64,000 nucleotides of DNA from a virus. Both the position numbers and the translations under genes were made by a program. The stretch spans positions 32,830 through 96,829 of IMG/VR virus record IMGVR_UViG_3300008261_004773; one strand, written 5' to 3'. The notes beneath the pieces were generated by a model, which was not told the DNA's origin, did no database searches, and was given only the letters and a program-made list of their open reading frames with translations. Shown here piece after piece: positions 1-13,657 of the stretch. Within the stretch, counting starts at the first letter, position 1. Each line of letters opens with the position of its first letter.

Positions 1-1
1 A

Positions 2-196
2 AAACTTGGAATTGAATGCAAGTTTGTAGGGAATTTTCCATGGGTATATCTTGACGAGATCAATGGGAAAAGAGTTACTGAACGTTTCTGTGGTAACCAT
101 GGTTTCACAATTGCTTTCCTACCTATCCGTAAGGGACAAAAAATGAATCTCACAGATATTGGGGAGATAATGAAAGTGGTAAGAAAGTATAGATGA
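2..196 (+). CDS. Hypothetical phage protein, 3' part (runs off window start)
   Basis: Open frame 2..196 (KLGIECKFVGNFPWVYLDEINGKRVTERF...RKYR-TGA), translated by hand. Confidence 0.7.
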   Translation, partial: KLGIECKFVGNFPWVYLDEINGKRVTERFCGNHGFTIAFLPIRKGQKMNLTDIGEIMKVVRKYR

Positions 197-202
197 TAAA
201 AC

Positions 203-275
203 GCGTGTGTAGCTCAGCTGGAAGAGCAGTGGTCTCCAAAACCAAAGGTCGTAGGTTCGATTCCTACCATGCGTG
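203..275 (+). tRNA. tRNA-Trp(CCA)
   Basis: Cloverleaf: TAGCTCAG D-arm, anticodon loop CTCCAAA, GTAGG-TTCGATT-CCTAC T-arm. Confidence 0.93.
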
Positions 276-280
276 CAAAA

Positions 281-412
281 GGTTGATTGGGGAATGGTGA
301 TATCAATGACTCGAGAGTGTATTTCGGTCGGTATCATCGGAGTTGGGAGAAATACACCTGAGTAATGCCAATCATAAAAGGGGTCGTCCACGCAACCATC
401 TTCCCCTTTCCT
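281..412 (+). ncRNA. Putative structured non-coding RNA between tRNA-Trp and tRNA-Tyr
   Basis: GC-rich spacer; pairings 284-290/368-374, 317-325/349-357, 289-298/395-406, 377-383/403-409. Confidence 0.55.
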
Positions 413-417
413 AATTT

Positions 418-499
418 GGGAGTATTGCCTAGCGGCAATGGCAGAAGACTGTAAATCTTCCCTCTTTCGAGTTCGTTGGTTCGAGTCCAGCTACTCCCA
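418..499 (+). tRNA. tRNA-Tyr(GTA)
   Basis: GGGAGTA/TACTCCC acceptor, GAAGA-CTGTAAA-TCTTC anticodon arm, long variable arm. Confidence 0.95.
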
Positions 500-504
500 C
501 TTAT

Positions 505-575
505 TGTCGTATGGTGTAACGGTAACACAGCAGATTTTGGTTCTGCTTTTCAAGGTTCGAATCCTTGTGCGACAA
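505..575 (+). tRNA. tRNA-Gln(TTG)
   Basis: TGTCGTA/TGCGACA acceptor, GCAGA-TTTTGGT-TCTGC, CAAGG-TTCGAAT-CCTTG. Confidence 0.95.
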
Positions 576-580
576 CTCAT

Positions 581-653
581 GGTGGATGTAGTTCAGAGGA
601 AGAACACTTGATTGTGGTTCAAGATGTCGTGGGTTCGAGTCCCATCATTCACC
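581..653 (+). tRNA. tRNA-His(GTG) with encoded G-1
   Basis: G-GTGGATG/CATTCAC-C, CTTGA-TTGTGGT-TCAAG anticodon arm. Confidence 0.95.
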
Positions 654-659
654 CAACAT

Positions 660-734
660 TGGAATGTAGCTCAGTTGGTTTAGAGCGCTAATCTGATACG
701 TTAGATGTCGGCGGTTCGAGTCCGCCCATTCCAA
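660..734 (+). tRNA. tRNA-Ile(GAT)
   Basis: TGGAATG/CATTCCA acceptor, loop CTGATAC, GGCGG-TTCGAGT-CCGCC. Confidence 0.95.
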
Positions 735-741
735 CAAAAGA

Positions 742-826
742 GGAGAGTTGCCTGAGTGGTTAAAGGAGCGGTTTGCTAAACCGTGGTCGGGAAACTGATC
801 CATTGGTTCGAATCCAATACTCTCCG
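742..826 (+). tRNA. tRNA-Ser(GCT)
   Basis: GGAGAGT/ACTCTCC acceptor, loop TTGCTAA, long variable arm. Confidence 0.95.
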
Positions 827-876
827 CATTTGACAATTAAAATCTATTTTACTATTATTTCATACAAACTTTTTTT

Positions 877-1317
877 ATGACTATCAAACAAGCTTTAAAG
901 TACAAAAACAAACTTGCTAAGAAAATTTCTGAAGAGATGATCAAAATCTCGCATTATAACTCAATAGAAGTAGGATCTGTTCGTCCTTACGATGTTAATG
1001 AGTCTTACCAAAAATATTACACCATGGTAAATGAATTGGTGGATTTAAAAAACAAAATACATCTTGCAAACGCACCTGTTTATTACCAAATTTTCCGTTT
1101 ATCTGAATTAAAAGGAATGGTGAGTAACCTAAAACAATTGGATTGTTCTGAAGGTAAAGTTGCATCAAGATATGGTAGAAGTATGGGTGAAGAACCTACA
1201 ATTAAGACCGCTGTAATTACAGTCAAAATGAGAGATGAGGCGGTGGAAACTTTGGAAACTGAGATTGAAAAAATTCAAGAAGAATTGGATCATCACAACG
1301 CAATTACAACAATTTAA
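877..1317 (+). CDS. Coiled-coil protein, DIP1984-like family
   Basis: 146 aa; N-term MTIKQALKYKNKL and C-term EIEKIQEELDHHNAITTI resemble the DIP1984-family pattern as I recall it. Confidence 0.6.
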   Translation: MTIKQALKYKNKLAKKISEEMIKISHYNSIEVGSVRPYDVNESYQKYYTMVNELVDLKNKIHLANAPVYYQIFRLSELKGMVSNLKQLDCSEGKVASRYGRSMGEEPTIKTAVITVKMRDEAVETLETEIEKIQEELDHHNAITTI

Positions 1318-1324
1318 AAATATT

Positions 1325-1501
1325 GGGTCAAGTGAAGAGGAGAGATAATTAAAAGTTAAGCTAGCAATGGCTCTACAATCAAATATTTCTGATGCAGGAA
1401 CTCGAATTGTGTATTCAAAAATTAAAATTCATCAGTTCAAAAATTAAACGTCAGATGTCAACATTCTTTCAATTTTAATTTTCAAACCTTTTCCTTGATC
1501 C
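1325..1501 (+). ncRNA. Putative ~177-nt ncRNA with long closing stem and heptamer-periodic interior
   Basis: 1325-1332/1494-1501, 1335-1340/1487-1492 and 1347-1354/1473-1480 pair; TCA/TTA at 1415, 1422, 1429, 1437, 1444, 1451, 1458. Confidence 0.6.
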
Positions 1502-1519
1502 TCCTTAAAACAATTTATT

Positions 1520-1762
1520 ATGGAACTTTTTTGGACTTATTATGTTATCTGTGTGATTTATTGTCACATTCAACTCTACAAAAGATATCGTAGAGACATG
1601 ACGCCTGGAGCGTTGAATATAACACCGGCTCTAGATTCAATCATGGTTATTATTCTCGGTTGGGCTTTGGCTCCTGTGGACTTTTTCCTAACTTGGATCA
1701 GGCTTTACAAAGAAGCTGAGGAAGCACGTAGAAGAAATTCAGACGATAAGAAAGTATTCTAA
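1520..1762 (+). CDS. Small membrane protein
   Basis: 80 aa, two hydrophobic segments. Confidence 0.7.
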   Translation: MELFWTYYVICVIYCHIQLYKRYRRDMTPGALNITPALDSIMVIILGWALAPVDFFLTWIRLYKEAEEARRRNSDDKKVF

Positions 1763-1843
1763 TTTGACCTTTCGATATAGTTTTGATATATTTATAATCT
1801 ATTGGTAAACTATTTTTTACATAAACTAAAACAAAAAAAACAA

Positions 1844-2017
1844 ATGAAAAAAGTATTGTTTTCTCTTTTGGTAATCGCAGGTTTAGCGGCTTGTAATGGT
1901 TCTACTTCTACTGAAGTTGCAACTAAAGATTCAGTTGTAGTTGATTCTACAGCAGTTTCTACAGAGGTTGTTGCTGATTCAACTAAAGTTGATTCAGTTG
2001 CTGCTGAAGTTAAGTAA
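1844..2017 (+). CDS. Small lipoprotein rich in D-S-(T/V) motifs
   Basis: MKKVLFSLLVIAGLAA-C lipobox; ATG at 1844 preferred to upstream TTG. Confidence 0.8.
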   Translation: MKKVLFSLLVIAGLAACNGSTSTEVATKDSVVVDSTAVSTEVVADSTKVDSVAAEVK

Positions 2018-2038
2018 TTTATCTTCTCACCGAAATAG

Positions 2039-2066
2039 AAAACCCACTTTTTGAGTGGGTTTTTTA
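2039..2066. terminator. Bidirectional intrinsic terminator
   Basis: AAAACCCAC...GTGGGTTTTTT between convergent genes. Confidence 0.8.
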
Positions 2067-2067
2067 T

Positions 2068-3276
2068 TTATAGTAATCTTTTGATCTGTTTTATATTTTC
2101 TCTGATGGATTCGTTTTTACTTACAGTATTCTTCTTTACCCAATCTACCCATTTGTAAGGTTGTACCTCATCAGTTTTTGAGACAGTTTTGATATTACTT
2201 GTATCCACGTCTAACGCTCTTAAAGGTTTCGTTAATAGGTCTAATATTGGATCTTTTCTTGAGTCGAGTTTAGGTCTTTCAGGTTTGATCTCCTTTCTTT
2301 TCTTGTCTTTGTCATCAACCTCTGTGTCACTGTCGAATTGTCTAAAACTTATTTTTGACTTAGATCTATCTAATATTCTTGCAACAGTATCACGACCGGC
2401 AGTTCCAATAACTTTATTCTTTGACAATGTCTGATCCGGTCTTACTTTGATATTAGATACAGAGCAAAATTCTGTGTAATAAATTTTCTTTTCAATCATA
2501 TGTTGTATGATTACAGAATCTTTACAGTTGTCTCTGTTACCAACAAAAACAACTTTACCATCCTCTGGATTCAAAACTTTCTTATCATTATCGACTGAAT
2601 ATTCTACGCTTGATATGTAACGACCATTAGACAACTCGTATACTTCGTTGATTGGGGTTATCATATCTCTGTGTTCAAGTTTCATCATCACAGCATTTTT
2701 CAGTGGCTCTAATATCTTTTTCAATATTGGATCCTCACTACGTTCTTTGGATGTGGTGTCTTTTTTGACTTGAGTATCTTTACTAAAAAAGTCATCCCAA
2801 TTAGTTTCGGATGATTTTGTCCCTGCAGACATAGGAATATTTTGTGTACCAACGTCGAACTTATCAACGTAATTCATTGGATCAACCAATTTACCATCTT
2901 TTTTCAATGTGAAATGTAAATGCGGACCACGTGAGTTACCTCTACCCGGATCATCCGATCCTCCACCTGAAAGCCCGACCACCTGACCTCTTTTTACAGT
3001 ACTACCCTGAGATACATCAACGCGTTTTACGTGACAAAATCTACTCCAAAAACCATTACCATAATCAATATCGATTGTACCACCACATTGTCTGTTATGA
3101 TTTGGGTGTGCTGTTTTTACAATACCATCTGCTGGTGCCTTTATAGCTGTGCCTGAAGGTACGGGAATGTCCACACCTGGATGTGTTTCATAACTTCTTT
3201 TGGCACCAAATGGAGAAGATACTTGGGATGATCCTACAGGATTCATAAATGTGACTTCTCTCAGTAACTTTTTCAT
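2068..3276 (-). CDS. M23 family peptidase with a second, degenerate M23-like domain
   Basis: HPGVD, FCH and GPHLHF motifs; second domain retains the DGKVVFVG/VIIQH pattern without HxH. Confidence 0.88.
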   Translation of the reverse strand: MKKLLREVTFMNPVGSSQVSSPFGAKRSYETHPGVDIPVPSGTAIKAPADGIVKTAHPNHNRQCGGTIDIDYGNGFWSRFCHVKRVDVSQGSTVKRGQVVGLSGGGSDDPGRGNSRGPHLHFTLKKDGKLVDPMNYVDKFDVGTQNIPMSAGTKSSETNWDDFFSKDTQVKKDTTSKERSEDPILKKILEPLKNAVMMKLEHRDMITPINEVYELSNGRYISSVEYSVDNDKKVLNPEDGKVVFVGNRDNCKDSVIIQHMIEKKIYYTEFCSVSNIKVRPDQTLSKNKVIGTAGRDTVARILDRSKSKISFRQFDSDTEVDDKDKKRKEIKPERPKLDSRKDPILDLLTKPLRALDVDTSNIKTVSKTDEVQPYKWVDWVKKNTVSKNESIRENIKQIKRLL

Positions 3277-3313
3277 ATAAGATAAATACCCATAAAAAAG
3301 AAAAACCGATTTT

Positions 3314-3535
3314 TCAATCGGCTTCTTTTTTTCTGTCTAATCCATATTTGATATACTTGTACCAAATACGTTCATGGATATAATATTGTATTGGTTTGTA
3401 AAGTAATTCTGCAACTCCGAAAGCGGCACCAACTTTTACAGAACCAGTTGCAAACCACATGATAAGAAAACCTATTAGTGTACTAATAATTCTGTAACTT
3501 ATGGTTTTAGCAACGTGTCTTTTATTTTGTACCAT
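3314..3535 (-). CDS. DUF2061-like small membrane protein
   Basis: RHVAKTISYRI...YYIHERIW signature. Confidence 0.8.
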   Translation of the reverse strand: MVQNKRHVAKTISYRIISTLIGFLIMWFATGSVKVGAAFGVAELLYKPIQYYIHERIWYKYIKYGLDRKKEAD

Positions 3536-3927
3536 TATACTTCGTACGAATTAACCATCTCAGTGATATCTAATCCTTCCCATCCCTGATTACGGTTCAA
3601 ATTTATACCTATAGCTCTCGGTATTTGTTCATTCTCAGGATCTTTGTCGTTAAGTATTACTCTTGTACCTCTACCTAAGTCCATAACAAGTTGATGGTAT
3701 TTGACACCAATTTTTTCGAGTTCCTGTTTTGTGAACAATTCGTATGAGCTTGGTCTAGCTGTTGTTATTACTATTACTGCCCCCTCGTCGTAGTATTTGT
3801 TTATTACATCGATAACCTCTTGTATGGGGGTCAAAACTGAAGTTGATAGTTCATTGAACTTTCTATATTGAACTAATGTTCCATCGATATCGACGAAGAA
3901 AGTTGGGTTTTTAATTGTTTTATTCAT
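3535..3927 (-). CDS. HAD-superfamily phosphatase (capless)
   Basis: FVDIDGTL, ITTAR, LNDK motifs. Confidence 0.8.
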   Translation of the reverse strand: MNKTIKNPTFFVDIDGTLVQYRKFNELSTSVLTPIQEVIDVINKYYDEGAVIVITTARPSSYELFTKQELEKIGVKYHQLVMDLGRGTRVILNDKDPENEQIPRAIGINLNRNQGWEGLDITEMVNSYEV

Positions 3928-4444
3928 TGCTTAAGAAAAAATGTATTCCTTTACTCCAGTAATCACCAAATGAACCTTCAATATCTTTGTATTTTATCGA
4001 TGTCACGTAGTCTTCACCTTCAATATCGGTAATGTTTATTTTTAGTTTTGATACGTCAAAATTCTCCTCATCGTCAATTGTAATTTCGAAGAACTGACCT
4101 TTGATATTATCTTCAACATATAACGTATTAGAGTTGTAGATTTCCGTCATTTCAGAGTTGGGATCATGTGTTTCTTGGAATAGAATTATCTGAACTTCCT
4201 CTTTAAATATGGTTGCATTTTCATCATCAAACACAGTTATTTCAGTGTTTTCAGGAATTCCACCAACTATTGAGGATTCCGTAGAGACTAAATGTTCCAT
4301 GTCAACGTTGAGGATATCGGCAACGTCCTCTAATATACACTCTTGTAAATTTAGATGTTCGAGTTGTTCTCTCTGATCCGAATCAATCGGATGTTGATAA
4401 ATTTCTGAACCTCTACCTTGTAATACAATGGTGAATTTGGGCAT
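3920..4444 (-). CDS. Hypothetical acidic protein
   Basis: 174-aa ORF overlapping the next gene by 8 nt. Confidence 0.7.
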   Translation of the reverse strand: MPKFTIVLQGRGSEIYQHPIDSDQREQLEHLNLQECILEDVADILNVDMEHLVSTESSIVGGIPENTEITVFDDENATIFKEEVQIILFQETHDPNSEMTEIYNSNTLYVEDNIKGQFFEITIDDEENFDVSKLKINITDIEGEDYVTSIKYKDIEGSFGDYWSKGIHFFLSNE

Positions 4445-4459
4445 ATGTTTTATTTTTTG

Positions 4460-4532
4460 AGCGGGAAACCGGGCTCGAACCGGCCACCTATAGCTTGGAA
4501 GGCTATCGCTCTACCAAATGAGCTACTCCCGC
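4460..4532 (-). tRNA. tRNA-Gly(TCC)
   Basis: Reverse complement GCGGGAGTAGCTCA...ATAGC-CTTCCAA-GCTAT...TTCGAG...TTCCCGCT. Confidence 0.95.
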
Positions 4533-4715
4533 TTAATATCTTTTTGGAATTATAATCCAAAATAAAATATAAATCAAAATTATTGGTAGTGGAGAAAAAA
4601 TAAGTCCTGCAAACAATATTCTGAAAAAAACAGGATCTGTGTTGAAGTATTCACCTAATCCTGAGCAAACACCACCGAAAACTTTATCGACGGGATCTCT
4701 GAAAATTCGTTTCAT
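4533..4715 (-). CDS. pspC: PspC-domain protein
   Basis: RDPVDKVFGGVCSGLGEYFNTDPVFFRI...YILFWIIIP signature. Confidence 0.88.
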   Translation of the reverse strand: MKRIFRDPVDKVFGGVCSGLGEYFNTDPVFFRILFAGLIFSPLPIILIYILFWIIIPKRY

Positions 4716-4730
4716 AAATTATATTATTTA

Positions 4731-4812
4731 AGTGAACAGTGGTTGGTGGGATACTATACCTCGGAGTCGACTTCCTTTCACTGCTGCAGACAGTTACACC
4801 AACATGTTCACC
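4731..4812 (-). ncRNA. Putative ~82-nt multi-branch structured RNA
   Basis: Nested GTGAACA/TGTTCAC and GTTGGTG/CACCAAC stems enclosing short hairpins. Confidence 0.5.
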
Positions 4813-4926
4813 ATCCGTTAAAATGTGATATTGTCCCCATGTTCAGGATAATCATCTCCCTGTCCATTGTTGGGATCGAGTTCTACCTCGTATTTCAAAT
4901 CATAACTCATCATCAACGGTTTTGTG

Positions 4927-4999
4927 AGCCAGAGACAGGAATCGAACCTGCGACCTACTGATTACAAATCAGTTGCTCTACCTGCTGAGCTACTCGGGC
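4927..4999 (-). tRNA. tRNA-Thr(TGT)
   Basis: Reverse complement has ACTGA-TTTGTAA-TCAGT and GCAGG-TTCGATT-CCTGT. Confidence 0.95.
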
Positions 5000-5010
5000 A
5001 TTCATTCTAA

Positions 5011-5223
5011 TTACTTCAAAGATAACGTTTTTTCTTCCAAATCAAAATTTTTTTTATTCATTTCTTTGATTGTTTTTCTTCCAGTTTTCCAATCAAGCCA
5101 AGTGTCCATATCACGGAGATCCATGAGGGTTTTCTCATGAACGAGAATGAAACCCTCAGGAGCAACCCCCGCGAACTTACGAACCTCACCCTCTCTTTCG
5201 AGAATCTCTTTGATATTAACCAT
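5011..5223 (-). CDS. Hypothetical protein
   Basis: 70-aa ORF overlapping the upstream gene. Confidence 0.65.
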   Translation of the reverse strand: MVNIKEILEREGEVRKFAGVAPEGFILVHEKTLMDLRDMDTWLDWKTGRKTIKEMNKKNFDLEEKTLSLK

Positions 5224-5806
5224 TATTCAAGAATTTTAAAATTTTTTCTTTGATTCCTGTTTGTTTGATTCCTTCATTAGATTTCTTTGTATGGACGAAA
5301 TTATCTAAACCCCAATCATAAACAAACTCTAAATCGTTCTCAGTTTGAAACTTACCCATATTCAAATCATCAACAGCAACCCAAGATGTTATCTCAGGAT
5401 GATCATTCAAATAGGTTTTAATTTCTAATGATCTTTCTTCTTCTAATTTGGCGTAGTTCCTAAAATTTTTTTCCCAATTTTTTGGATCAATTTCACTTAC
5501 TCTTTTTGTAACGCCAATAGGACCTTTGGTAATACCTTGATCCATATAGTACTTCTGAAGTTCTTCCAAACTCGCATAGTACCTCCAATCAGAGGAAACA
5601 ACAATTTCTGCACCAGTCTCCTCTAAAACTTCATTTAGAACCTTTACAGCCTTTTTATTAAAGTTATCGAATCTATATTCAAAAGGGATCTCACTTGGAG
5701 TCATGGATAACTTTCGTCCTCCCCATTTTTTCTGTTTTTTGTAACGTCCACCCCATTCTGTGGACAAACAGATTACACCATCATTATCTAAGAAAATCAC
5801 TTTCAT
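5216..5806 (-). CDS. HAD domain protein (Swiss-army-knife RNA-repair-like, HAD_SAK_2)
   Basis: VIFLDNDGV, IVVSSDWR and WVAVDD motifs. Confidence 0.8.
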   Translation of the reverse strand: MKVIFLDNDGVICLSTEWGGRYKKQKKWGGRKLSMTPSEIPFEYRFDNFNKKAVKVLNEVLEETGAEIVVSSDWRYYASLEELQKYYMDQGITKGPIGVTKRVSEIDPKNWEKNFRNYAKLEEERSLEIKTYLNDHPEITSWVAVDDLNMGKFQTENDLEFVYDWGLDNFVHTKKSNEGIKQTGIKEKILKFLNNG

Positions 5807-5882
5807 AAGACAAATGTACGAATATTTATTATAACACCAAAAAGTCTAAAGACATAAACTTTAAACACCCCTCAGATGGACG

Positions 5883-6107
5883 ATGCAAATAAACAGGGAA
5901 ACGTGGCAGAAAACACTCCAAGAGAATCTGTCTCAAATATTTTTAATGCTCGCTTTGTTCTTCAATCCATTTGGATTCGATGCCGTTCAGTATTCCCTAA
6001 TATTACTGACAGGAAGTTTATGGAAAGCGAACTTCGTTTTGTATTGTATTGCGGGGGTATTTTTTGGGCTTTATATCTACTTTCGAAGATTATCTAAAGC
6101 GCCTTGA
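5883..6107 (+). CDS. Small membrane protein
   Basis: 74 aa, two TM-like segments (FFNPFGFD). Confidence 0.6.
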   Translation: MQINRETWQKTLQENLSQIFLMLALFFNPFGFDAVQYSLILLTGSLWKANFVLYCIAGVFFGLYIYFRRLSKAP

Positions 6108-7578
6108 GTTTTCCTTCTTTGAATAACTCAAAATTGGGACCTTTGGTTAAAAAATAGTCTTTTCCAACCTTTCTATATCCTAAGATACCTGCGTTCTTAG
6201 CTGCGGCGAAGAATGAAGAATGTTGACCTCTTAATTCTCTTGGTTCCATTGTATAGTTACCTCTTTTGTATTTGGTTTTTCCATTGTCTGTAATTTTCTC
6301 GATGTAACCGATGTCAACTAAAAAGTCTAATTTGGTTCCTATTTTACCTGCCTCCAAGAATTTAACAAGTTTTGAAATCATCCCTTTGTTTTTTCCGAAT
6401 GTATATCCATATGTTGGAGTAAAAACGGCTTGATCGCCAATTACTTTTTTCTGTAACTCACGGTTATTCTCCACTTTATTCATAACACTAGAAAGTATCC
6501 ACCTCCTCATTGTATCTGTAGTGTTTTCAACAGTATCCAAAACCATAGGTGATTTCAGTTCGAAATTTTCTAAACCTAAATCTATGTAATCACTATCTTC
6601 CGAAGGATCATTACCTTGAAAACCAAGATCAATTTTGAATACATTCCTTTGGAACCTATGATTGAATTCCACATCACCATATGAGATCATGATTTGGTAA
6701 GAATCTAATACCTTACTCTCATTTAATTTTGATAGATATATTGTTAACTCACCCACAGCGTGATTTGGCATACCCTGTACGTTTTCAAATGCATCGATCC
6801 CGATTCCTAACTTTGTACCGGGCATCAAATAGTTTTTTGTTTGATCTAAACGTTGGTAATCGTTGAATACTTGAAATAACAATTCGTTCTTCTGAGATTC
6901 CGTGGATTTCTTTTTGTGTTCGTAGATTGCATCTGTAATATCCGAGAATGCGTATTTGAATACCTCAACTTCCCTATCCGACATTTTGTTGTCTGCTGTG
7001 TCCCACCAAGATTCTTTACCTGAGTTATCAAAGTGTACTGCAACTTTTGTGTAGTTACCTGGCTTTGAACTTTTCTTGTCGATGATGTAAAATAAAAGTT
7101 GACCTCCTGATGTATATCTACCAAAATGTCCCGCACCTTTTGAAGTTGTGCACCACTTTGTTCCTGATCCGTATTTACATGAAGATTCTTCATTTTTCGG
7201 TATTATAACAACGAATTTATCGTCCTCATAAATCTTATCAATTTGTTTTTCTAGTTCTTTTTCTTTTTGTTTTTGTTTGATAGGGAATAAAGCTGAATCT
7301 AATTCTTCAAAACTTTCATATTGATTGATGTCTTTTTTATCAAGTTGGGATTGATACTTATCAAAACTTTTAATCAAATTAATCCCAATTTCAGCGTCAC
7401 CTTCAATATGATCAGGATGAACTCCTTTCAGAACAAAATCCGTGTATTTGTGATTGAAATCTTGTAAATCAGCAATATTCAGAAACCAATCTAAAGTTTT
7501 TTCATCAAACTTGTTGGTATATTTTTTCTTTAAATCTTCTTTACGTCCTTCCCCTAATAAAATTGATATGAACTTCAT
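6094..7578 (-). CDS. Phage protein with KDINQY / KWCT domain
   Basis: 494 aa; shares motifs with 8090-9667; TATTTATA 4 nt upstream. Confidence 0.75.
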   Translation of the reverse strand: MKFISILLGEGRKEDLKKKYTNKFDEKTLDWFLNIADLQDFNHKYTDFVLKGVHPDHIEGDAEIGINLIKSFDKYQSQLDKKDINQYESFEELDSALFPIKQKQKEKELEKQIDKIYEDDKFVVIIPKNEESSCKYGSGTKWCTTSKGAGHFGRYTSGGQLLFYIIDKKSSKPGNYTKVAVHFDNSGKESWWDTADNKMSDREVEVFKYAFSDITDAIYEHKKKSTESQKNELLFQVFNDYQRLDQTKNYLMPGTKLGIGIDAFENVQGMPNHAVGELTIYLSKLNESKVLDSYQIMISYGDVEFNHRFQRNVFKIDLGFQGNDPSEDSDYIDLGLENFELKSPMVLDTVENTTDTMRRWILSSVMNKVENNRELQKKVIGDQAVFTPTYGYTFGKNKGMISKLVKFLEAGKIGTKLDFLVDIGYIEKITDNGKTKYKRGNYTMEPRELRGQHSSFFAAAKNAGILGYRKVGKDYFLTKGPNFELFKEGKLKAL

Positions 7579-7594
7579 ATGGTATAAATATACA

Positions 7595-7623
7595 AAAGGG
7601 GAGATCTATGTCTCCCCTTTTTT
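7595..7623. terminator. Intrinsic terminator
   Basis: AAAAGGGGAGA...TCTCCCCTTTTTT downstream of tRNA-Arg. Confidence 0.8.
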
Positions 7624-7624
7624 G

Positions 7625-7696
7625 TAGTCCCGCCAAGAATCGAACTTGGAATTACTGCTTAGAAGGCAGTAGTTATATCCATTTAACTACAGGACC
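7625..7696 (-). tRNA. tRNA-Arg(TCT)
   Basis: Reverse complement has ACTGC-CTTCTAA-GCAGT and CCAAG-TTCGATT-CTTGG. Confidence 0.93.
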
Positions 7697-7701
7697 ATGT
7701 T

Positions 7702-8052
7702 TTATTTCCAAAATAGTTGGATCAAAAGTATAATAAAACTTAATGATAAACAAATTATTGTTTTAGTTGTCATGGGTTCTTTGAGTATAAACCAAGCCAT
7801 TATGCTAAATACAATAACACCAATACTGAATCCAATAATACGGTTTGGCCAAGTCTGACCATCGTAGAGACTAACCATTTCCCTACTTGCCAAAATTACA
7901 AAATAACCAACAGGGACACCCATCAAAGTCATTAGGAAGGGGTGTTCTTTGATCCATTTATTCCAAAGGTGACCTTGTAATTGATAAAATGTGAAAGCCT
8001 GTGAAAACAGGTAGACTGTTAAAATAAAAATAATCGAGTAAATCTTGTTCAT
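7702..8052 (-). CDS. Four-TM membrane protein (DMT/SMR-like)
   Basis: Four hydrophobic helices, LKEP motif before the last; ATG 8052 follows TATATTTG. Confidence 0.65.
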   Translation of the reverse strand: MNKIYSIIFILTVYLFSQAFTFYQLQGHLWNKWIKEHPFLMTLMGVPVGYFVILASREMVSLYDGQTWPNRIIGFSIGVIVFSIMAWFILKEPMTTKTIICLSLSFIILLIQLFWK

Positions 8053-9692: not shown

Positions 9693-9719
9693 TAAAAAAC
9701 CCCATCCGAAGACGGGGTT
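9693..9719 (-). terminator. Intrinsic terminator
   Basis: AACCCC...GGGGTT hairpin with T-tract on the minus strand. Confidence 0.65.
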
Positions 9720-9726
9720 AATTAAA

Positions 9727-10065
9727 TTAAAGTGATCTGAGAACGTAGGAGAGTAGTGATAACACACCAACCAAAATTGGCATGTAAGTTTTTGCTCCCC
9801 CCATAAGTGCGAGATGTAAAACAACCGCAGCACTCATAAATGAAGTAACCAATACCATTCCGTAAAGGGACGTTACTGGAATACAAAGTAAGATAACACC
9901 CAAAAGTTCTCCAACCCCTGTTAGTAATCTATACTTTTCTAACTTCATAAATGCGAAGTTTCCGACCATTTCTTGAGTTCCGATGATTTTTTCTACAGCA
10001 CCTTTACCTAACATAACGGCTACAACTGCAGTTAAAACCCATCCGAGAATTGCTAAAATTGTCAT
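9727..10065 (-). CDS. DoxX family membrane protein
   Basis: Four TM helices, GVGELLGVILL...AVVLH pattern. Confidence 0.75.
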   Translation of the reverse strand: MTILAILGWVLTAVVAVMLGKGAVEKIIGTQEMVGNFAFMKLEKYRLLTGVGELLGVILLCIPVTSLYGMVLVTSFMSAAVVLHLALMGGAKTYMPILVGVLSLLSYVLRSL

Positions 10066-10116
10066 ATAATTTATTTTGAAATTAAAGAATAGTTAAACAA
10101 CATGACATTGTCAAAT

Positions 10117-10144
10117 AAAAAACCCCCACCGTAGTGAGGGTTTT
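10117..10144 (-). terminator. Intrinsic terminator after the TonB-dependent receptor gene
   Basis: AAAACCC...GGGTTTT hairpin. Confidence 0.7.
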
Positions 10145-10163
10145 ATATTCTATGATGTTTAGA

Positions 10164-13100
10164 TTACTTACCAAAAGTATATCTGATACCTAACTGTGCA
10201 GACCATACATCAAATACTGATGAATTGAATTGATATGTGTCTTTGATCAAGTAAGTACCGCTTGCATCTCTTTGAGTTGCCAATCTATACGTTGGAATGT
10301 TACTAGCATCTCTGCTAACGAAGTTTAACAACTGAGGGTTTGTAGCTCTTTGAGATACACCCCATTTGTTGTTTACCATGTTTCCAAAGTTTAAAATGTC
10401 AGCTCTAATTTGGAAAGAATTTCTTTTTCCACCGATTTTAACAAATACATCCTGAGCTATTGAAAGATCGAATCTATGTAGGAAAGGAAGATCAAGTGCG
10501 TTTCTTTCAGCGTACTGTCCTCTTCTTGTTGATAGATATGGATCTTGAGATATGAAAGCTTCGAATGATGCTTGTTGTTCAGCTTCAGTGTAAACTCTTG
10601 TTCCTACTGTAAGTGGTGCAAAACGAATGTCAGATCCTTTGTTTGGTACAAATACCAAATCATTGTTATTTACTCTGTCACCGTTCAAATCACCAGCTAC
10701 AATGTAAGAGAATGGATTGTTCTGTGAACCAACATAACCAAGAGTGATTGTTGTTGCTCCACCATATTTTTTACCGTAGTCAATTCTGTAACCTAACAAA
10801 CCTACGATTCTATTTCTAACAACAAAGTCAGAAATTGATAGTCCTAAGTTATTGTTACCGTTTACAGATACTGCTGACTGCCAGCTACCACTCGCGATTG
10901 AACCCGCACTCATGAAATCTTCAGCCATAGCGTTTGTGTAAGCTACGTAACCCCAAAGACCTTTTGATACAGGTTTTTCTAATTTGAATGTTGCTGAACG
11001 ATTGTAAGCACCATTTCTGTTTGTTAGAACTGCTGCCATTGATACGTTATCATTTACTCTTACACCATTATCATTTCCTGCGAAAAGGTCTCTAGTATCA
11101 ACACCACCTAACTTACCAACTGGTTTATCTAAGTTAGCGTTGTAATAATGAACCGCATTGATGGTTTTGTTGTAGAGTAATTCAGCACTCAAAATTAAAC
11201 CAAGCCAAGGTAGTTTCTGATCAATAGCGATGTTGTTTTTCCAAACTTGTGGAAATTTATAATTCTGATTAGTGAATGCTAAATCAAACGTAGAAGGTAA
11301 AGTTGGTGTTGATGGGATGAAGTATTGATTAGGATTTGCAGTGAAACCATATTGTGCCGCTGCCGCTCCTGATACATCGATAAATCCTGTTAACACACCG
11401 TTGTTACCAACTTGGTTAGAAAGGAACACGTATGGTGGTCTACCTGTGAATACACCTGTACCACCACGGATTTGTGTTTTTTTCTGACCTTTGAGGTCGT
11501 AGTTGAATCCGAAACGAGGTTCTATTAAGAACTGTGTTTTTGGAAGAACACTTGTATTGAATCCTTCACCATTTGCGAAGATCATTGAAGACACCGCTTT
11601 ATTTTCTAAAGCTGTGTTACCTAAATCAATAACATTTGCTCTGATACCAAAAGTCAACTTCAGTTCTTTGGTTGCGTTGAATTCATCTTGAACGTAAAGA
11701 TCCAAACGATTAGCTTCCAAAACCTGCATTGGTTCTACCGCTCCAGGAAGTGCAGAATAACGTAATTGGAATCTTGCCGGTGCGAATGTTGAAGGTCTAC
11801 CACCGTTAGCAATTGATTGTCTTGCTGCGGTATAGAAGTCGTTCAGACTGTTGAAGATGTAAACTCCGTTAGAAGCTGGGAAGAATAAGTTATTTGATTG
11901 ATAACTTTGATAGTTGAAACCACCAACCAAAGTATGTTTGTTCAAATACTTTGTCAAGTTATTTGTTACGTTGAACGTCCAATAGTTCAATTTGTTACCA
12001 GGTGTGAAAGGGTCGAAACCTACTGAAGTGTAAGTTGCGGAACCTTCTCTGATATCAATAGTTGGGAACATTTGACTCAAATATGCTCTATCCTCAATTT
12101 GCTTATCGTAAGAAACGATTAAGTTATTGTGAAGTGTGTTAGAGATTTTAGAGTTAAGTTCCAAAACCGCAGAACGAGTATTGTCCTGAATAATGTAACC
12201 ACTATTTTTGAAACTCATTGCGTTGAACTGAGTAGTTCTGTTTCCTGCTCCCGCTGACTGAGAGTTTGAAATGTTAATCTCAGCAGAAGAATTGTGATTC
12301 ACATAACGAGCGGTTAACTTGTTATTCTTGTTGATGTTCCAATCCACACGAATCAAGAATTTTCTTGAATCGTTAGTGTTAGAATACCCTTCCCAAGGAC
12401 CTGTGACATAACCCAAACTATCTTTCATAAAGTTTGATAGTCTTTGCATGTCAGCAAATTTAACTCTACTGATTTGTGTACCTGTTAAAGGAGATCCTTC
12501 TGAAATCCAAGTCGTACCTGGTTCAGTTCTTACGATACTCTCATAGTTACCAAAAATGAATAATTTGTTTTTGATAATTGGAGCACCTAATCTGAAACCT
12601 TGTACCTTTTCATCAAATTTAGCCGCAGTTACTGTCGTACCCCTTGCATTGTTACCAACATAAGTAGATGAGTTGTTTCTCTGTGTTTGATACACACTTC
12701 CTTCAACCTCATTCGTACCTGAACGAGTAACAGCATTGATACCTGCACCAACGAAACCACTTTGACGAATATCGAAAGGTGCCACGTTAACCTGAAGTTG
12801 GTCAATTGCATCCAATGATATTGCTGAAGCACCAGTTCTACCACCCGCTTGAGCTGAAGAACCCAAACCAAAGTTGTTGTTGAACTGTGATCCGTCAATA
12901 GTGAAGTTGTTTAAACGTGAGTCTTGAGCTCCAAAAGAGTTTCCGTTACCGAATGGGTTGTACTTTGTGATACCATCGATAGTTCTTGCTCCCGCGATCG
13001 GAATAGAAGTAAGTTCTCTACGTCCGAATTGTTGAGCAGCTCCGGTTTTGTCTTTCGAAAAAACGTTACTCTTTGTTCCCACGACTGTAACCTCACTGAG

Positions 13101-13439
13101 TTGTTTAGAGTCGGAAAGTAGAACTACGTCCACATTACTTGTCGAGCCCAACAATGTCTGAATGTCTGTGATCTCAGCCATTTTGTAACCAACGTAACTA
13201 ACGTGGATAATGTAAGGTCCACCTACACGAACTGCTGGAATGGTATACAAACCAGATTTTGTTGAGCTTGTTCGATACTCAGAACCTGAAGGTTGGTGTA
13301 CTGCGTGTACAGTGGCACCTGCTAAAGTTTCTCCTTTTTCATTTTTCACAACACCTGACAGGGTAGAAGTTGTAATCTGCCCGAAAGATGTCAATGCCAC
13401 CATAAAGGATAAAAGGGACATCAAGATTGCTTTTTTCAT
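10164..13439 (-). CDS. TonB-dependent receptor, Oar-like, with N-terminal carboxypeptidase-regulatory-like domain
   Basis: Signal peptide, NNFTIDG...NNNFGL plug, GAGINAVTRSGTN, PRFGFNYD, C-terminal QLGIRYTF. Confidence 0.92.
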   Translation of the reverse strand: MKKAILMSLLSFMVALTSFGQITTSTLSGVVKNEKGETLAGATVHAVHQPSGSEYRTSSTKSGLYTIPAVRVGGPYIIHVSYVGYKMAEITDIQTLLGSTSNVDVVLLSDSKQLSEVTVVGTKSNVFSKDKTGAAQQFGRRELTSIPIAGARTIDGITKYNPFGNGNSFGAQDSRLNNFTIDGSQFNNNFGLGSSAQAGGRTGASAISLDAIDQLQVNVAPFDIRQSGFVGAGINAVTRSGTNEVEGSVYQTQRNNSSTYVGNNARGTTVTAAKFDEKVQGFRLGAPIIKNKLFIFGNYESIVRTEPGTTWISEGSPLTGTQISRVKFADMQRLSNFMKDSLGYVTGPWEGYSNTNDSRKFLIRVDWNINKNNKLTARYVNHNSSAEINISNSQSAGAGNRTTQFNAMSFKNSGYIIQDNTRSAVLELNSKISNTLHNNLIVSYDKQIEDRAYLSQMFPTIDIREGSATYTSVGFDPFTPGNKLNYWTFNVTNNLTKYLNKHTLVGGFNYQSYQSNNLFFPASNGVYIFNSLNDFYTAARQSIANGGRPSTFAPARFQLRYSALPGAVEPMQVLEANRLDLYVQDEFNATKELKLTFGIRANVIDLGNTALENKAVSSMIFANGEGFNTSVLPKTQFLIEPRFGFNYDLKGQKKTQIRGGTGVFTGRPPYVFLSNQVGNNGVLTGFIDVSGAAAAQYGFTANPNQYFIPSTPTLPSTFDLAFTNQNYKFPQVWKNNIAIDQKLPWLGLILSAELLYNKTINAVHYYNANLDKPVGKLGGVDTRDLFAGNDNGVRVNDNVSMAAVLTNRNGAYNRSATFKLEKPVSKGLWGYVAYTNAMAEDFMSAGSIASGSWQSAVSVNGNNNLGLSISDFVVRNRIVGLLGYRIDYGKKYGGATTITLGYVGSQNNPFSYIVAGDLNGDRVNNNDLVFVPNKGSDIRFAPLTVGTRVYTEAEQQASFEAFISQDPYLSTRRGQYAERNALDLPFLHRFDLSIAQDVFVKIGGKRNSFQIRADILNFGNMVNNKWGVSQRATNPQLLNFVSRDASNIPTYRLATQRDASGTYLIKDTYQFNSSVFDVWSAQLGIRYTFGK

Positions 13440-13465
13440 TTTGCTTTCTGTTTATTGGTTTATAA

Positions 13466-13501
13466 ATAAAAAATCCCGCGACTGTTACGTCAACGGGATT
13501 T
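13466..13501 (-). terminator. Terminator-like hairpin inside the receptor gene leader
   Basis: AAATCCCG/CGGGATTT stem followed by TTTTATTT on the minus strand. Confidence 0.6.
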
Positions 13502-13628: not shown

Positions 13629-13657
13629 CACGGAGATATCCAACTGATTTTCAGTAA

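What the first reader, a model, noticed from the sequence alone, without database searches (positions are those of the whole stretch)
877..1501. DIP1984-like coiled-coil gene paired with a stem-closed RNA carrying seven heptad-spaced TYA triplets: candidate new protein-RNA system
Seen: 7 nt after the stop codon begins a 177-nt non-coding segment whose ends pair through three nested helices (GGGTCAAG/CTTGATCC, AAGAGG/CCTTTT, AATTAAAA/TTTTAATT). Inside, TCA or TTA recurs at 1415, 1422, 1429, 1437, 1444, 1451 and 1458 (period 7, once 8), including a duplicated TTCAAAAATTAAA. A period of 7 is not codon-related. Established: regularly spaced trinucleotides are how oligomeric ring proteins such as TRAP read RNA. 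Inference: the uncharacterised coiled-coil protein oligomerises on this RNA (one triplet per subunit) as an RNP, autoregulatory element or type III toxin-antitoxin-like pair, transcribed with the tRNA array.
Basis: partly seen in the sequence, partly recalled or inferred. Interest (0 to 1): 0.8.

Follow-up and report, generated by a model that had tools for sequence, protein, structure and literature searches.

The report
Heptad-repeat RNA behind DIP1984-fold gene
Right behind a small helical-protein gene of unknown function, this lake-water giant phage encodes a real, conserved, stem-closed RNA of 177 bases carrying a row of seven evenly spaced 7-base units; the same gene-plus-RNA pair recurs in well over a hundred phages and in scattered bacteria, is in no RNA catalogue, and is probably an undescribed protein-RNA particle whose job is unknown.

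Summary
The gene at 877-1317 encodes a 146-aa protein with the DIP1984 fold (PDB 3KDQ, Z 13.2). It carries T(C/T)A words at 1415, 1422, 1429, 1437, 1444, 1451 and 1458. That chain is unique in the 64-kb window, and 1 of 5000 shuffles reaches it.

The element is conserved. The 88 distinct homologous loci whose downstream sequence I read carry a comparable element, always on the coding strand and starting 0-8 nt after the stop codon in the 45 measured. They come from freshwater jumbo phages, two huge phages, and Bacteroidota, Planctomycetota and Fimbriimonadaceae contigs. The outer stem covaries (7 of 8 pairs change on both sides). The 7-nt period is a family trait (TCA-TCA distance 7: 133 seen, about 10 expected). 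Its CAA core survives a change from 30% to over 60% GC. No other neighbouring gene is conserved.

Rfam, including RAGATH-27, and PADLOC have nothing, and a full-text search found no paper on the family beyond its annotation label. The protein models as a symmetric dimer. That the protein reads the heptads is inferred, not shown. The type III toxin-antitoxin features tested were not met.

This scan has reported the same gene-RNA family on other DNA at least eight times.

The parts
830..858 (+). Sigma-70-type promoter-like site (TTGACA, 17 nt, TATTAT) between tRNA-Ser and the gene; a possible own promoter of the gene-RNA unit
   Evidence: 11 of 12 consensus matches. This is a pattern match only. 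The host is probably a Bacteroidota, whose promoters differ.
877..1317 (+). Gene for a 146-aa helical protein with the DIP1984 (3KDQ) fold, a distant relative of Pfam DUF6847; predicted symmetric homodimer
1325..1501 (+). Conserved structured non-coding RNA ('heptad-repeat RNA'), 177 nt, beginning 7 nt after the stop codon
   Evidence: Fold z -3.5. Covariance model R1 scores 120.9 bits, E 1.4e-19, and this is the only plus-strand match (E<=1) in the 96.8-kb record; its reverse complement scores 15.9 bits, E 0.755. No Rfam match.
1325..1332 (+). P1 5' strand (GGGTCAAG), pairs with 1494-1501
   Evidence: in 58 distinct rows 94.8% of cells are paired and 7 of 8 pairs change on both sides
1334..1340 (+). 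P1b 5' strand (GAAGAGG), pairs with 1487-1493 and includes G-U pairs
   Evidence: helix 2 is 76.7% paired and all 4 modelled pairs covary
1347..1354 (+). P1c 5' strand (AATTAAAA), pairs with 1473-1480
   Evidence: Minimum-free-energy fold. An equivalent third tier appears in single-sequence folds of relatives but was not tested for covariation.
1359..1372 (+). P2 hairpin (AGCTA-GCAA-TGGCT), followed by the conserved single-stranded CTACAA (1373-1378)
   Evidence: A small P2 is the only interior helix that survives the covariation scan (3 bp, 75% paired). CTACAA is conserved in alignment A3.
1389..1407 (+). Conserved 'GAU block' (CTGATGCAGGAACTCGAAT), the family motif YUGAU..GAAC/GAU
   Evidence: The first GAT is invariant in 45 aligned sequences. 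The block is also present in the Planctomycetota versions.
1415..1466 (+). Heptad array of seven units starting 1415, 1422, 1429, 1437, 1444, 1451 and 1458 (TCAA/TTAA/TCAT/TCAA/TTAA/TCAG/TCAA). It ends in CAACATTC (1459-1466), the local version of the family's near-invariant UAAAACUC.
1473..1501 (+). 3' strands of P1c (1473-1480), P1b (1487-1493) and P1 (1494-1501)
1520..1762 (+). Next ORF on the same strand: 80 aa, hydrophobic N-terminal half, no family match. It is not a conserved partner.

Best explanation
The region is a self-contained two-part module. It consists of a gene for a small dimeric protein with the DIP1984/DUF6847 fold and, on the same transcript immediately 3' of it, a structured RNA of about 180 nt. 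A long interrupted closing stem (P1, P1b, P1c) and a small hairpin (P2) frame an interior in which no conserved helix was found and whose predicted pairing is lower than in the closing stem. That interior holds a conserved GAU block and a row of about seven 7-nt units with a (U/G)CAA core, ending in UAAAACUC. The most likely mechanism is that the row of heptads is a binding rail for several copies of a sequence-specific protein, one unit per binding site. The partner is most probably the protein encoded just upstream, for example about four dimers on seven or eight units, so that gene and RNA together make a ribonucleoprotein particle. Shown here: the RNA is real, conserved, strand-specific and always linked to this gene, and the period and core word are under selection. 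The context hints at a role in phage-host conflict or RNA or tRNA damage control.
For: 1. Linkage. The RNA lies on the coding strand downstream of the gene in all 88 distinct homologous loci whose downstream sequence I read. These came from IMG/VR phage contigs, two huge-phage records and 33 bacterial or MAG contigs, with protein identity falling to 27-36%. Model R1 finds one plus-strand site per locus, next to the gene.
2. Copy number. Two complete or near-complete jumbo-phage genomes (321 and 291 kb) hold exactly one gene and one RNA, adjacent to each other. The window's own record holds one.
3. Spacing. The gap from the stop codon to P1 is 0-8 nt in 45 of 45 measured loci. The pair also survives insertion of a small ORF between gene and RNA in L024/L027 and L089.
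4. No other partner. No other neighbouring gene is conserved; the largest neighbour cluster occurs in 15 of 92 loci.
5. Structure. P1 covaries: 94.8% of cells paired, 7 of 8 pairs changed on both sides, covariation 0.453 against 0.179 in shuffles (0 of 500 reach it) and at most 0.19 when the partner is slid. G-U pairs are common and A-C rare, so the structure belongs to the plus-strand RNA.
6. Periodicity. Across 92 downstream regions, TCA-TCA distances peak at 7 (133 against about 10 expected), 14/15 (74/80) and 22 (68). Flanking DNA shows only the coding period of 3.
7. Core word. It persists while composition changes: UCAAAAN in AT-rich phages, UUAAAAG four times at an exact period of 7 in LR756511, and UCAAGGN or GCAAGNN in Planctomycetota at over 60% GC.
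8. Reach into DUF6847 proper. One bona fide DUF6847 gene (163 bits) has a downstream heptad row with a different core, CAC (CTTACAC CAGCACA CCTCACA CATCACC CTGCACA). This is what a protein-specific code would predict, but it is a single case.
9. Protein. The homodimer model scores ipSAE 0.69 against a best control of 0.00. That mark was reached by 20 of 30 proteins solved as pairs of one chain and by 1 of 23 solved as single chains. The runs agree in at least 96% of contacts and partner pLDDT is at least 90. The tool notes that these counts hold only roughly because my own alignment was used, and the pass may reflect memory of 3KDQ.
10. Candidate ligand site. Residues conserved in 93 distinct proteins that lie outside the dimer interface cluster in the N-terminal helix (A6 L7 K8 x K10 N11 x L13; net charge of the first 20 residues +4 at the median) and in the C-terminal helix (I130 Q134 L137 D138 N141).
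11. Accessibility. The array has lower predicted pairing (0.2-0.5) than the closing stem (0.7-0.9), and no interior helix other than P2 survives a covariation scan.
Against: The protein is neutral overall (window pI 6.9, family median 6.8). Its fold (3KDQ) has no assigned function and no known RNA-binding relatives. A two-fold symmetric dimer does not by itself explain the reading of direct repeats. Many of the conserved residues are already accounted for by the dimer interface. Strict adjacency on one transcript would also be expected for a purely cis-acting 3'-UTR element. The interior alignment is weak, so conserved interior structure, including pseudoknots reported for sister families, could have been missed. 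The CAA-versus-CAC difference rests on one locus.
Confidence: 0.5

Rival explanations
1. The RNA is a binding rail or decoy for some other factor, not for the neighbouring protein. Candidates are a host or phage single-strand RNA-binding protein, a nuclease, or a tRNA-directed enzyme. The 7-nt units of the form N-U-CAA-R-N have the length and layout of a tRNA-Leu anticodon loop. Alternatively it is a Y-RNA-like scaffold in RNA-damage control. In this reading the DIP1984-fold protein acts as a helper, or in the same pathway without reading the heptads.
For: The window's module sits directly after six tRNA genes. tRNA genes lie just upstream in L021, L030, L040 and L093 (tRNA-Leu just upstream in L021, L030 and L093; in L040 tRNA-Arg upstream and tRNA-Leu about 1.1 kb downstream) and in the bona fide DUF6847 locus L149 (tRNA-Gly and tRNA-Val). 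A HAD_SAK_2 ('Swiss Army Knife RNA repair') gene is a neighbour in 9 loci and lies at 5216-5806(-) in the window. L149 carries a T-arm-like GTGGGTTCGATCCCCAC.
Against: The only constant companion of the RNA is the DIP1984-fold gene. tRNA genes are near in only 4 of 92 loci plus the window. RtcB is not adjacent to the module in the 5 bacterial genomes checked. The base before CAA is G rather than U in several Planctomycetota units, unlike U33 of tRNAs.
Confidence: 0.17
2. The RNA is a cis-acting 3'-UTR or intergenic control element. It would protect the mRNA 3' end, couple folding to translation termination (P1 starts within the footprint of the terminating ribosome), or act as a HutP-like switch. 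In the last case the protein binds heptad-spaced triplets just downstream of its own gene and so controls read-through of the following terminator into downstream genes.
For: The element is on the same transcript, with a stop-to-P1 gap of 0-8 nt in 45 of 45 loci, and 27 of 45 loci have a hairpin plus T-run within 80 nt after P1. From my own knowledge, the layout of the B. subtilis hut operon is similar: a regulator gene of 148 aa, then NAG-N4 repeats at a terminator, then structural genes.
Against: Downstream genes are not conserved. Eighteen of 45 loci, including the window, show no terminator after the RNA. The array does not overlap the terminator hairpin. The pair persists when an ORF separates gene and RNA. 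About 180 nt with several near-invariant sequence blocks is far more than a 3'-end protector needs.
Confidence: 0.14
3. The module is a type III-like toxin-antitoxin or abortive-infection pair. The small protein would be toxic and the repeat-bearing RNA would neutralise it by direct binding. This is a special case of the RNP reading.
For: It is a small protein with an adjacent repeat RNA that travels as a unit. It occurs on phages and sporadically in bacteria (1 of 401 sampled Bacteroidota genomes). In Arcicella aurantiaca DSM 22214 it lies directly upstream of a type I restriction-modification system with a PBECR3 nuclease, followed by HTH_17 and AAA_25 genes that suggest a mobile element.
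Against: There is no PADLOC match and no Pfam match to ToxN, CptN or TenpN. The fold is a helical bundle without a recognisable nuclease site. The gene order is reversed relative to type III systems, and no terminator lies between RNA and gene. The units are 7 nt rather than 34-45 nt. The module is a single-copy, widely conserved gene of one jumbo-phage group, which fits a phage function better than an addiction module.
Confidence: 0.1
4. The element acts at the DNA level (iterons of an origin, a packaging site) or is a short protein-coding gene (a 26-codon ATG ORF at 1367-1447).
For: The 22-nt direct repeat resembles iteron spacing. An ATG-initiated 26-codon frame is visible in the sequence.
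Against: The closing stem uses G-U pairs that would be A-C on the other strand. Fold stability is greater on the plus strand in the window (z -3.5 against -1.0) and, on average, in the family (-2.3 against -1.7). The element is always on the coding strand directly after the gene. A 7-nt period does not match the pitch of the DNA helix. The small ORF is not conserved, lengths vary by non-multiples of 3, and the downstream regions lack the period-3 signal of the flanking genes.
Confidence: 0.02

Closest known systems
DIP1984 family / Pfam DUF6847 (PF20935; crystal structure 3KDQ of Corynebacterium diphtheriae; often annotated 'septicolysin')
   Same: The fold is the same over the whole protein: Z 13.2, rmsd 3.1 A, 140 of 146 residues, well above the next hit at Z 9.0, and Foldseek TM 0.66-0.69. 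There is weak sequence similarity (E 5.6e-6). Language-model neighbours include DUF6847 and 'putative septicolysin' clusters. A bona fide DUF6847 gene also has a downstream heptad row.
   Different: It lies below both curated cut-offs (26.6 against 70 bits; 13.5 against 27 bits), and Pfam DUF6847 fails to detect the bacterial relatives of this branch. The family has no known function. The papers that mention 'septicolysin' or DIP1984, judged from their titles and abstracts, are mainly genome and plasmid surveys, and none is about the protein itself. No RNA partner is described.
HutP with the hut terminator RNA, and TRAP with the trp leader (Bacillus subtilis)
   Same: In both, a small oligomeric protein reads regularly spaced short words on single-stranded RNA. 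HutP reads NAG-N4, a period of 7, directly downstream of its own gene. TRAP reads 11 (G/U)AG triplets. This comparison rests on my own knowledge of these systems.
   Different: The protein folds are unrelated, and Pfam gave no HutP or TRAP match. The word here is (U/G)CAA. The array is enclosed by a long closing stem rather than embedded in a terminator or antiterminator. There is no conserved downstream operon. A ring oligomer is not supported; only a dimer is.
Phage T4 gene 32 translational operator
   Same: A folded nucleation element sits next to a poorly structured stretch of more than 40 nt carrying several UUAAA/UAAA repeats, on which monomers of the phage's own protein bind cooperatively (PMC535899). 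The AT-rich versions of the present array contain the same UUAAA-type words. From my own knowledge, the gp32 site size is about 7 nt.
   Different: The T4 operator lies 5' of the regulated gene and overlaps its ribosome-binding site. gp32 is an OB-fold single-strand-binding protein. Here the array lies 3' of the gene, the period is strict, and the core is CAA even at high GC.
Type III toxin-antitoxin systems (ToxIN, CptIN, TenpIN)
   Same: They pair a small protein with an adjacent repeat-bearing RNA that binds it, and they occur on phages, plasmids and defence islands.
   Different: There is no family match. The RNA lies after the gene and on the same transcript, not before it with an intervening terminator. 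The units are 7 nt, not 34-45 nt. No endoribonuclease fold is present.
RAGATH-27 RNA motif (Rfam RF03100), named by earlier notes of this scan as the catalogued piece of sister families
   Same: It is an orphan candidate RNA of unknown function. Earlier notes report that it lies at the start of the RNA partner of DUF6847-like genes in other phage groups.
   Different: It is not detectable here. There is no match at E<=1 in window 1-8000 or in 15 diverse loci. The best score in five whole phage records is 24 bits against a gathering score of 76, away from the module and no better than in control genomes.

Membership tests
DIP1984 family (NCBIfam NF038048) / Pfam DUF6847 (PF20935) | Sequence score at or above the curated cut-off | tested here: not met
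   NF038048 scores 26.6 bits against a cut-off of 70 (E 5.6e-6, residues 5-85 only). PF20935 scores 13.5 bits against 27.
DIP1984 family (NCBIfam NF038048) / Pfam DUF6847 (PF20935) | Same three-dimensional fold as 3KDQ | tested here: met
   The AF2 model has pLDDT 91. Its match to 3KDQ_A has Z 13.2, rmsd 3.1 A and 140 aligned residues, with Foldseek TM 0.66-0.69 and probability 1.00.
Type III toxin-antitoxin (ToxIN/CptIN/TenpIN) | Toxin belongs to a ToxN/AbiQ, CptN or TenpN endoribonuclease family | tested here: not met
   No such Pfam hit, no PADLOC hit at E<=1, and a helical-bundle fold.
Type III toxin-antitoxin (ToxIN/CptIN/TenpIN) | Antitoxin is a tandem array of repeats of about 34-45 nt upstream of the toxin gene, separated from it by a terminator | tested here: not met
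   The RNA lies 0-8 nt downstream of the gene. Its units are 7 nt, with a 22-nt super-period.
Type III toxin-antitoxin (ToxIN/CptIN/TenpIN) | The protein is toxic and is neutralised by the RNA | not testable with these tools
   Needs expression assays.
HutP / TRAP type RNA-binding attenuation proteins | Protein of the HutP or TRAP family forming a hexameric or 11-mer ring | tested here: not met
   No Pfam match. The fold is that of 3KDQ. Only a symmetric dimer was modelled, and higher oligomers were not tested.
HutP / TRAP type RNA-binding attenuation proteins | Regularly spaced triplets on single-stranded RNA that overlap a terminator or antiterminator of a downstream operon | tested here: inconclusive
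   Regular spacing is met. A terminator follows in 27 of 45 loci but does not overlap the array. Downstream genes are not conserved.
Any Rfam 15 family (including RAGATH-27 RF03100 and YrlA RF02553) | Covariance-model score at or above the gathering threshold | tested here: not met
   There is no match at E<=1 on 1318-1519. RF03100 is absent from 15 loci and scores at most 24 bits against 76 in 5 phage records. The YrlA hit at 601-713 (31 bits against 69) lies on the tRNA genes, not on this RNA.
Heptad-repeat RNA with DIP1984-fold gene (the uncatalogued family defined here and in earlier notes of this scan) | Covarying closing stem starting within a few nt of the stop codon of a DIP1984-fold gene, same strand | tested here: met
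Heptad-repeat RNA with DIP1984-fold gene (the uncatalogued family defined here and in earlier notes of this scan) | Interior row of at least 4-7 units with a 7-nt (occasionally 8-nt) period and an NCAA-type core, ending in a UAAAACUC-like word | tested here: met
   The window has seven units at 1415-1458 followed by CAACATTC at 1459-1466. The family-wide periodicity is shown.

The most novel reading that the evidence does not exclude
DUF6847/DIP1984-fold proteins as a whole are the protein halves of an ancient, widespread ribonucleoprotein. Dimers line up on a heptad 'rail' RNA encoded immediately 3' of their gene, and the protein clade sets the word that is read (CAA in this branch, CAC in DUF6847 proper). 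The particle acts in tRNA or RNA-damage conflict between phages, mobile elements and hosts. This would give a first function to a protein family now mislabelled 'septicolysin'. It would also add a new class of sequence-periodic RNA recognition beside TRAP and HutP.
Probability: 0.35. Interest if true: 0.9.

Novelty: categorically new. Interest (0 to 1): 0.8.

Why it matters
If the pair is a ribonucleoprotein, it gives a testable function to a domain of unknown function that has a solved but unexplained structure (3KDQ) and is widely mis-annotated as 'septicolysin'. It adds an uncatalogued structured RNA family found in phages and at least three bacterial phyla. It also offers a clean new model of periodic single-strand RNA recognition, with 7 nt per site and a core word that stays the same while base composition changes. 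Its presence as a single-copy gene-RNA unit in jumbo phages, beside tRNA arrays in some loci and beside a restriction-modification island in a cultivable bacterium (Arcicella aurantiaca DSM 22214), makes the biology experimentally accessible.

Tried and rejected
- Rfam: cmscan at E<=1 found nothing on the element. RAGATH-27, a lead from earlier notes, was not found in the window, in 15 diverse loci, or above noise in 5 phage records.
- Protein libraries: PHROGs and PADLOC gave no match for the protein or the downstream ORF. An HMM search of PDB sequences gave only coiled-coil noise.
- DNA and protein searches: DNA similarity to deposited phages found nothing. tblastn of a relative (P0116) against plasmids found nothing, so the Acinetobacter plasmid 'septicolysin' loci could not be examined.
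- Interior structure: MAFFT with RNAalifold on 20 mixed sequences gave no structure because the ends were misaligned. Averaged pair probabilities on 45 sequences recovered only P1. An all-against-all covariation scan found only P1, P1b and a small P2. Candidate helices between the GAU block and UCA words occur at non-homologous positions in different sequences. A 10-bp helix enclosing the array (GGGGAUUCCG with CGGAAACCUC) is confined to the Gemmata-like group. I therefore do not claim any interior helix besides P2.
- Chain counts: strict counts of exact TCAA or CAA words were too insensitive because the words are degenerate. The window itself scores only 2 on CAA. The distance spectrum is the better statistic.
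- Neighbours: no universal partner gene was found. RtcB is not adjacent to the module in 5 bacterial genomes.
- Literature: searches for DIP1984 and septicolysin returned papers that, judged from their titles and abstracts, are mostly genome surveys and are not about the protein; the search for DUF6847 returned none.
- The 141-nt gap between tRNA-Trp and tRNA-Tyr (277-417) does not fold better than shuffles without pseudoknots (z -0.15).
Full report
**Setting.** The window is part of a 96.8-kb IMG/VR virus record estimated to be 31% complete, so the source is a jumbo phage with about 35% GC. Its genes lack Shine-Dalgarno sequences. The closest cellular carriers of the family are Bacteroidota contigs, so a Bacteroidota host is likely; this is an inference. 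On the plus strand the order is as follows:
- six tRNA genes at 203-827;
- a near-consensus sigma-70-type promoter-like site at 830-858;
- the 146-aa gene at 877-1317;
- the RNA at 1325-1501;
- an 80-aa hydrophobic ORF at 1520-1762;
- a small lipoprotein ORF at 1844-2017;
- a hairpin with a T-run near 2041-2070, read directly.
The minus strand beyond 2068 carries an M23 peptidase gene, further tRNA genes, and a HAD_SAK_2 'RNA repair' family gene at 5216-5806.

**Checking the observation.**
- The 202 nt after the stop codon fold to -42.3 kcal/mol (z -3.5, 0 of 200 shuffles as good) on the plus strand, but only to z -1.0 on the minus strand.
- The seven T(C/T)A words at 1415-1458 (steps 7,7,8,7,7,7) form the only chain of six or more such words in the 64-kb window on either strand. 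One of 5000 dinucleotide-preserving shuffles of the element reaches a chain of seven.
- No Rfam family matches at E<=1.

**The protein.** The Pfam and NCBIfam hits are weak and lie below the curated cut-offs: DIP1984_fam at 26.6 bits against 70, DUF6847 at 13.5 against 27. An AlphaFold2 model built on 23 homologues is confident (pLDDT 91). Its only outstanding structural match is 3KDQ, the function-unknown Corynebacterium diphtheriae protein that defines the DIP1984 family. The match has Z 13.2 and rmsd 3.1 A over 140 of 146 residues, with the next hit at Z 9.0, and Foldseek TM 0.66-0.69. Language-model neighbours are viral clusters that partly carry DUF6847, and a bacterial 'putative septicolysin' cluster. 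The protein is therefore a distant relative with the same fold, not a member by the curated sequence thresholds.

A two-copy complex prediction passes. It scores ipSAE 0.69 against a best control of 0.00. That mark was reached by 20 of 30 proteins solved as pairs of one chain and by 1 of 23 solved as single chains. The three runs agree in at least 96% of contacts, and partner pLDDT is at least 90. The tool notes that these counts hold only roughly with my own alignment, and the pass may reflect memory of 3KDQ. The predicted interface is two-fold symmetric.

I compared 93 distinct family proteins, including ones only 27-36% identical. The conserved positions outside that interface form an N-terminal A-L-K-x-K-N-x-L motif and a C-terminal I-x3-Q-x2-L-D-x2-N motif. 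The first 20 residues carry a median net charge of +4, but the whole protein is neutral, with median pI 6.8.

**The RNA is conserved and tied to the gene.**
- Homologue counts. A protein search found 140 homologues. Scans of IMG/VR returned 6 and then 80 loci, out of 170 that matched. The downstream sequences all show a non-coding stretch of 150-200 nt with a closing stem, a GAU block, a run of UCAA-type words, and a near-invariant UAAAACUC (alignment A3).
- Covariance model. RNAalifold on 15 alignable sequences predicts P1 (8 bp) and P1b (4 bp), with 9 of 12 pairs changed on both sides. A covariance model built from this alignment (R1) finds one plus-strand match per locus, always just 3' of the gene. 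The only minus-strand matches are weak reverse-complement echoes of the same sites.
- Pair statistics. On the 58 distinct aligned rows, P1 is 94.8% paired. Seven of its 8 pairs change on both sides. The covariation score is 0.453, against 0.179 in shuffles (0 of 500 reach it) and at most 0.19 when the partner is slid. The alignment was fitted to the model, which favours pairing. However, the P1 sequences found independently per locus give the same picture (GGGTCAAG/CTTGATCC, TGGTCGAG/CTCGACCA, GGATTGGG/CCCAATCC, TGTGTCGTTA/TAACGACATA and others).
- Strand. G-U pairs are frequent and A-C pairs rare, so the structure is specific to the plus-strand RNA.
- Position. P1 starts 0-8 nt after the stop codon in 45 of 45 loci, and 27 of 45 loci have a terminator-like hairpin plus T-run within 80 nt after P1.
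- Copy number. Two complete or near-complete jumbo-phage genomes contain exactly one gene and one RNA, side by side. The window's own record contains one.
- Neighbours. No other neighbouring gene is conserved; the largest cluster covers 15 of 92 loci.
- Insertions. In L024/L027 a small zinc-ribbon-like ORF has been inserted between gene and RNA, and in the huge phage LR756511 a lysine-rich mini-ORF has. The RNA persists in both.

**The heptad period is a family trait.**
- In 92 distinct downstream regions, TCA-TCA distances of 7, 8, 14, 15 and 22 occur 133, 47, 74, 80 and 68 times. About 10-12 are expected from the flanking DNA, which shows only the coding period of 3.
- The most informative cases are the remote ones. 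LR756511 (30% protein identity) has UUAAAAG repeated at an exact period of 7, ending in UUAAAACUC.
- Planctomycetota contigs and chromosomes (27-36% identity, high GC) have runs such as UUCAAGG UUCAAGG CUCAAGGA CUCAAAC, or GCAAGAC GCAAGGU ... GCAAGAC.
- The selected features are therefore a CAA core, usually preceded by U or G, and a 7-nt register. The AT-rich TTA/TAA words in the window are degenerate versions of it.
- One bona fide DUF6847 gene (163 bits) from a Bacteroidota genome is preceded by tRNA-Gly and tRNA-Val. It is followed by a T-arm-like hairpin and then five to six heptads with a CAC core. The RNA partner thus seems to extend to the wider superfamily with a different word, but this is a single case.

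**Interior structure.** Apart from a small P2 hairpin, which is followed by a conserved CUACAA, no interior helix is supported. This holds for averaged pair probabilities and for an all-against-all covariation scan. Predicted pairing of the array columns is 0.2-0.5, against 0.7-0.9 for the closing stem. GAU words and UCA words can pair, but they do so at non-homologous positions in different members. A helix enclosing the array is seen only in the Gemmata-like group. The working picture is a long stem that displays a largely open loop carrying the array. My alignments are weak in the interior, so pseudoknots cannot be excluded.

**Distribution and context.**
- Cellular carriers include Bacteroidota (among them the isolate Arcicella aurantiaca DSM 22214), Planctomycetota (Gemmata, Tautonia sp. 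JC769, and an 8.3-Mb chromosome-scale contig) and Fimbriimonadaceae.
- The family is sporadic. It occurs in 1 of 401 sampled Bacteroidota genomes, and that one is the query genome itself.
- In Arcicella the module is followed by two unknown small ORFs and a type I restriction-modification system with a PBECR3 nuclease. HTH_17 and AAA_25 genes come next, which points to a defence island or mobile-element setting.
- tRNA genes lie directly upstream in the window, in L021, L030, L040 and L093 (in three of the four the upstream gene is tRNA-Leu; in L040 it is tRNA-Arg), and in L149. That is only 4 of 92 loci plus the window.
- HAD_SAK_2 genes recur nearby, in 9 loci and in the window.
- RtcB is not adjacent to the module in five bacterial genomes.

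**Interpretation.** The strict one-to-one linkage over very large evolutionary distances is the main argument. No other conserved partner gene exists, and selection on the array acts on a word and a register rather than on base pairing. These points are best explained by a protein-RNA particle in which the heptads are binding sites. The CAA-versus-CAC difference between protein branches fits this, but n = 1. I put this reading at 0.5. The rivals are:
- a different reader, or a decoy or Y-RNA-like role connected to tRNA or RNA repair (0.17);
- a cis-acting 3'-UTR or HutP-like termination switch (0.14);
- a type III-like toxin-antitoxin, whose tested defining features are not met (0.10);
- a DNA-level element or a coding ORF (0.02).

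**Comparison with known systems.** In mechanism the closest analogues are HutP and TRAP, which read periodic triplets as oligomers (my own knowledge). Another is the T4 gene 32 operator: a folded nucleation site next to an unstructured run of UUAAA/UAAA repeats bound cooperatively by the phage's own protein (PMC535899). Membership in any of these families fails on the protein fold and on the layout. The RNA is in no Rfam family, and no paper on the family itself turned up.

**Earlier notes of this scan.** The scan has reported the same gene-RNA family on other DNA at least eight times.
- I agree with their core reading.
- I could not reproduce the RAGATH-27 link for this branch.
- I found no RtcB adjacency in five genomes.
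- I could not test circularity.
- I add three points: persistence of the CAA core across GC content, the CAC-type array behind a bona fide DUF6847 gene, and the defence-island context in a cultivable Arcicella strain.

Noticed in passing
window 277-417 (+): There is a 141-nt gap between tRNA-Trp and tRNA-Tyr inside an otherwise tight tRNA array. A simple fold here is no better than shuffles (z -0.15), which does not test pseudoknots, and Rfam has no match.
   Followed up: partly
L021, L030, L040, L093 (upstream of the gene); L149 1187-1398: Where a tRNA gene lies directly upstream of the DIP1984-fold gene, it is tRNA-Leu in three of four loci (anticodon UAA in L021 and L030; CAA and CAG in L093). 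In L040 the upstream tRNA is tRNA-Arg (UCU), and a tRNA-Leu (UAG) lies about 1.1 kb downstream of the gene. The heptads (N-U-CAA/UAA-R-N) have the length and layout of a tRNA-Leu anticodon loop. The numbers are very small, and the bona fide DUF6847 locus has tRNA-Gly and tRNA-Val instead.
   Followed up: partly
window 5216-5806 (-); 9 related loci, e.g. L051 1888-2487: A gene of the HAD_SAK_2 family ('HAD domain in Swiss Army Knife RNA repair proteins') recurs near the module. In the window it lies among tRNA genes (tRNA-Gly 4459-4532, tRNA-Thr 4926-4999, tRNA-Arg 7624-7696, all on the minus strand).
   Followed up: partly
L125 (Arcicella aurantiaca DSM 22214, G001:C4:141000-159000) 9719-17417: Directly downstream of the module lie a type I restriction-modification system (HsdR, HsdS, HsdM) with an embedded PBECR3 nuclease gene, and then HTH_17 and AAA_25 genes. 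This looks like a defence island on a mobile element in a cultivable strain.
   Followed up: partly
L024/L027 about 2940-3125; L089 1987-2076: Small ORFs are inserted between the gene and its RNA. One is a protein of about 62 aa with two CxxC pairs (L024/L027). The other is a 29-aa lysine-rich peptide (huge phage LR756511).
   Followed up: no
window 10164-13439 (-): A 1091-aa ORF has CarboxypepD_reg and outer-membrane beta-barrel (TonB-dependent-receptor-like) domains. This is unusual cargo for a phage, or a sign of host-derived DNA in the contig.
   Followed up: no
L149 2018-2036: A tRNA T-arm look-alike (GTGGGTTCGATCCCCAC) sits just before the CAC-type heptad row behind the bona fide DUF6847 gene. 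No such element is seen in the window's RNA.
   Followed up: no
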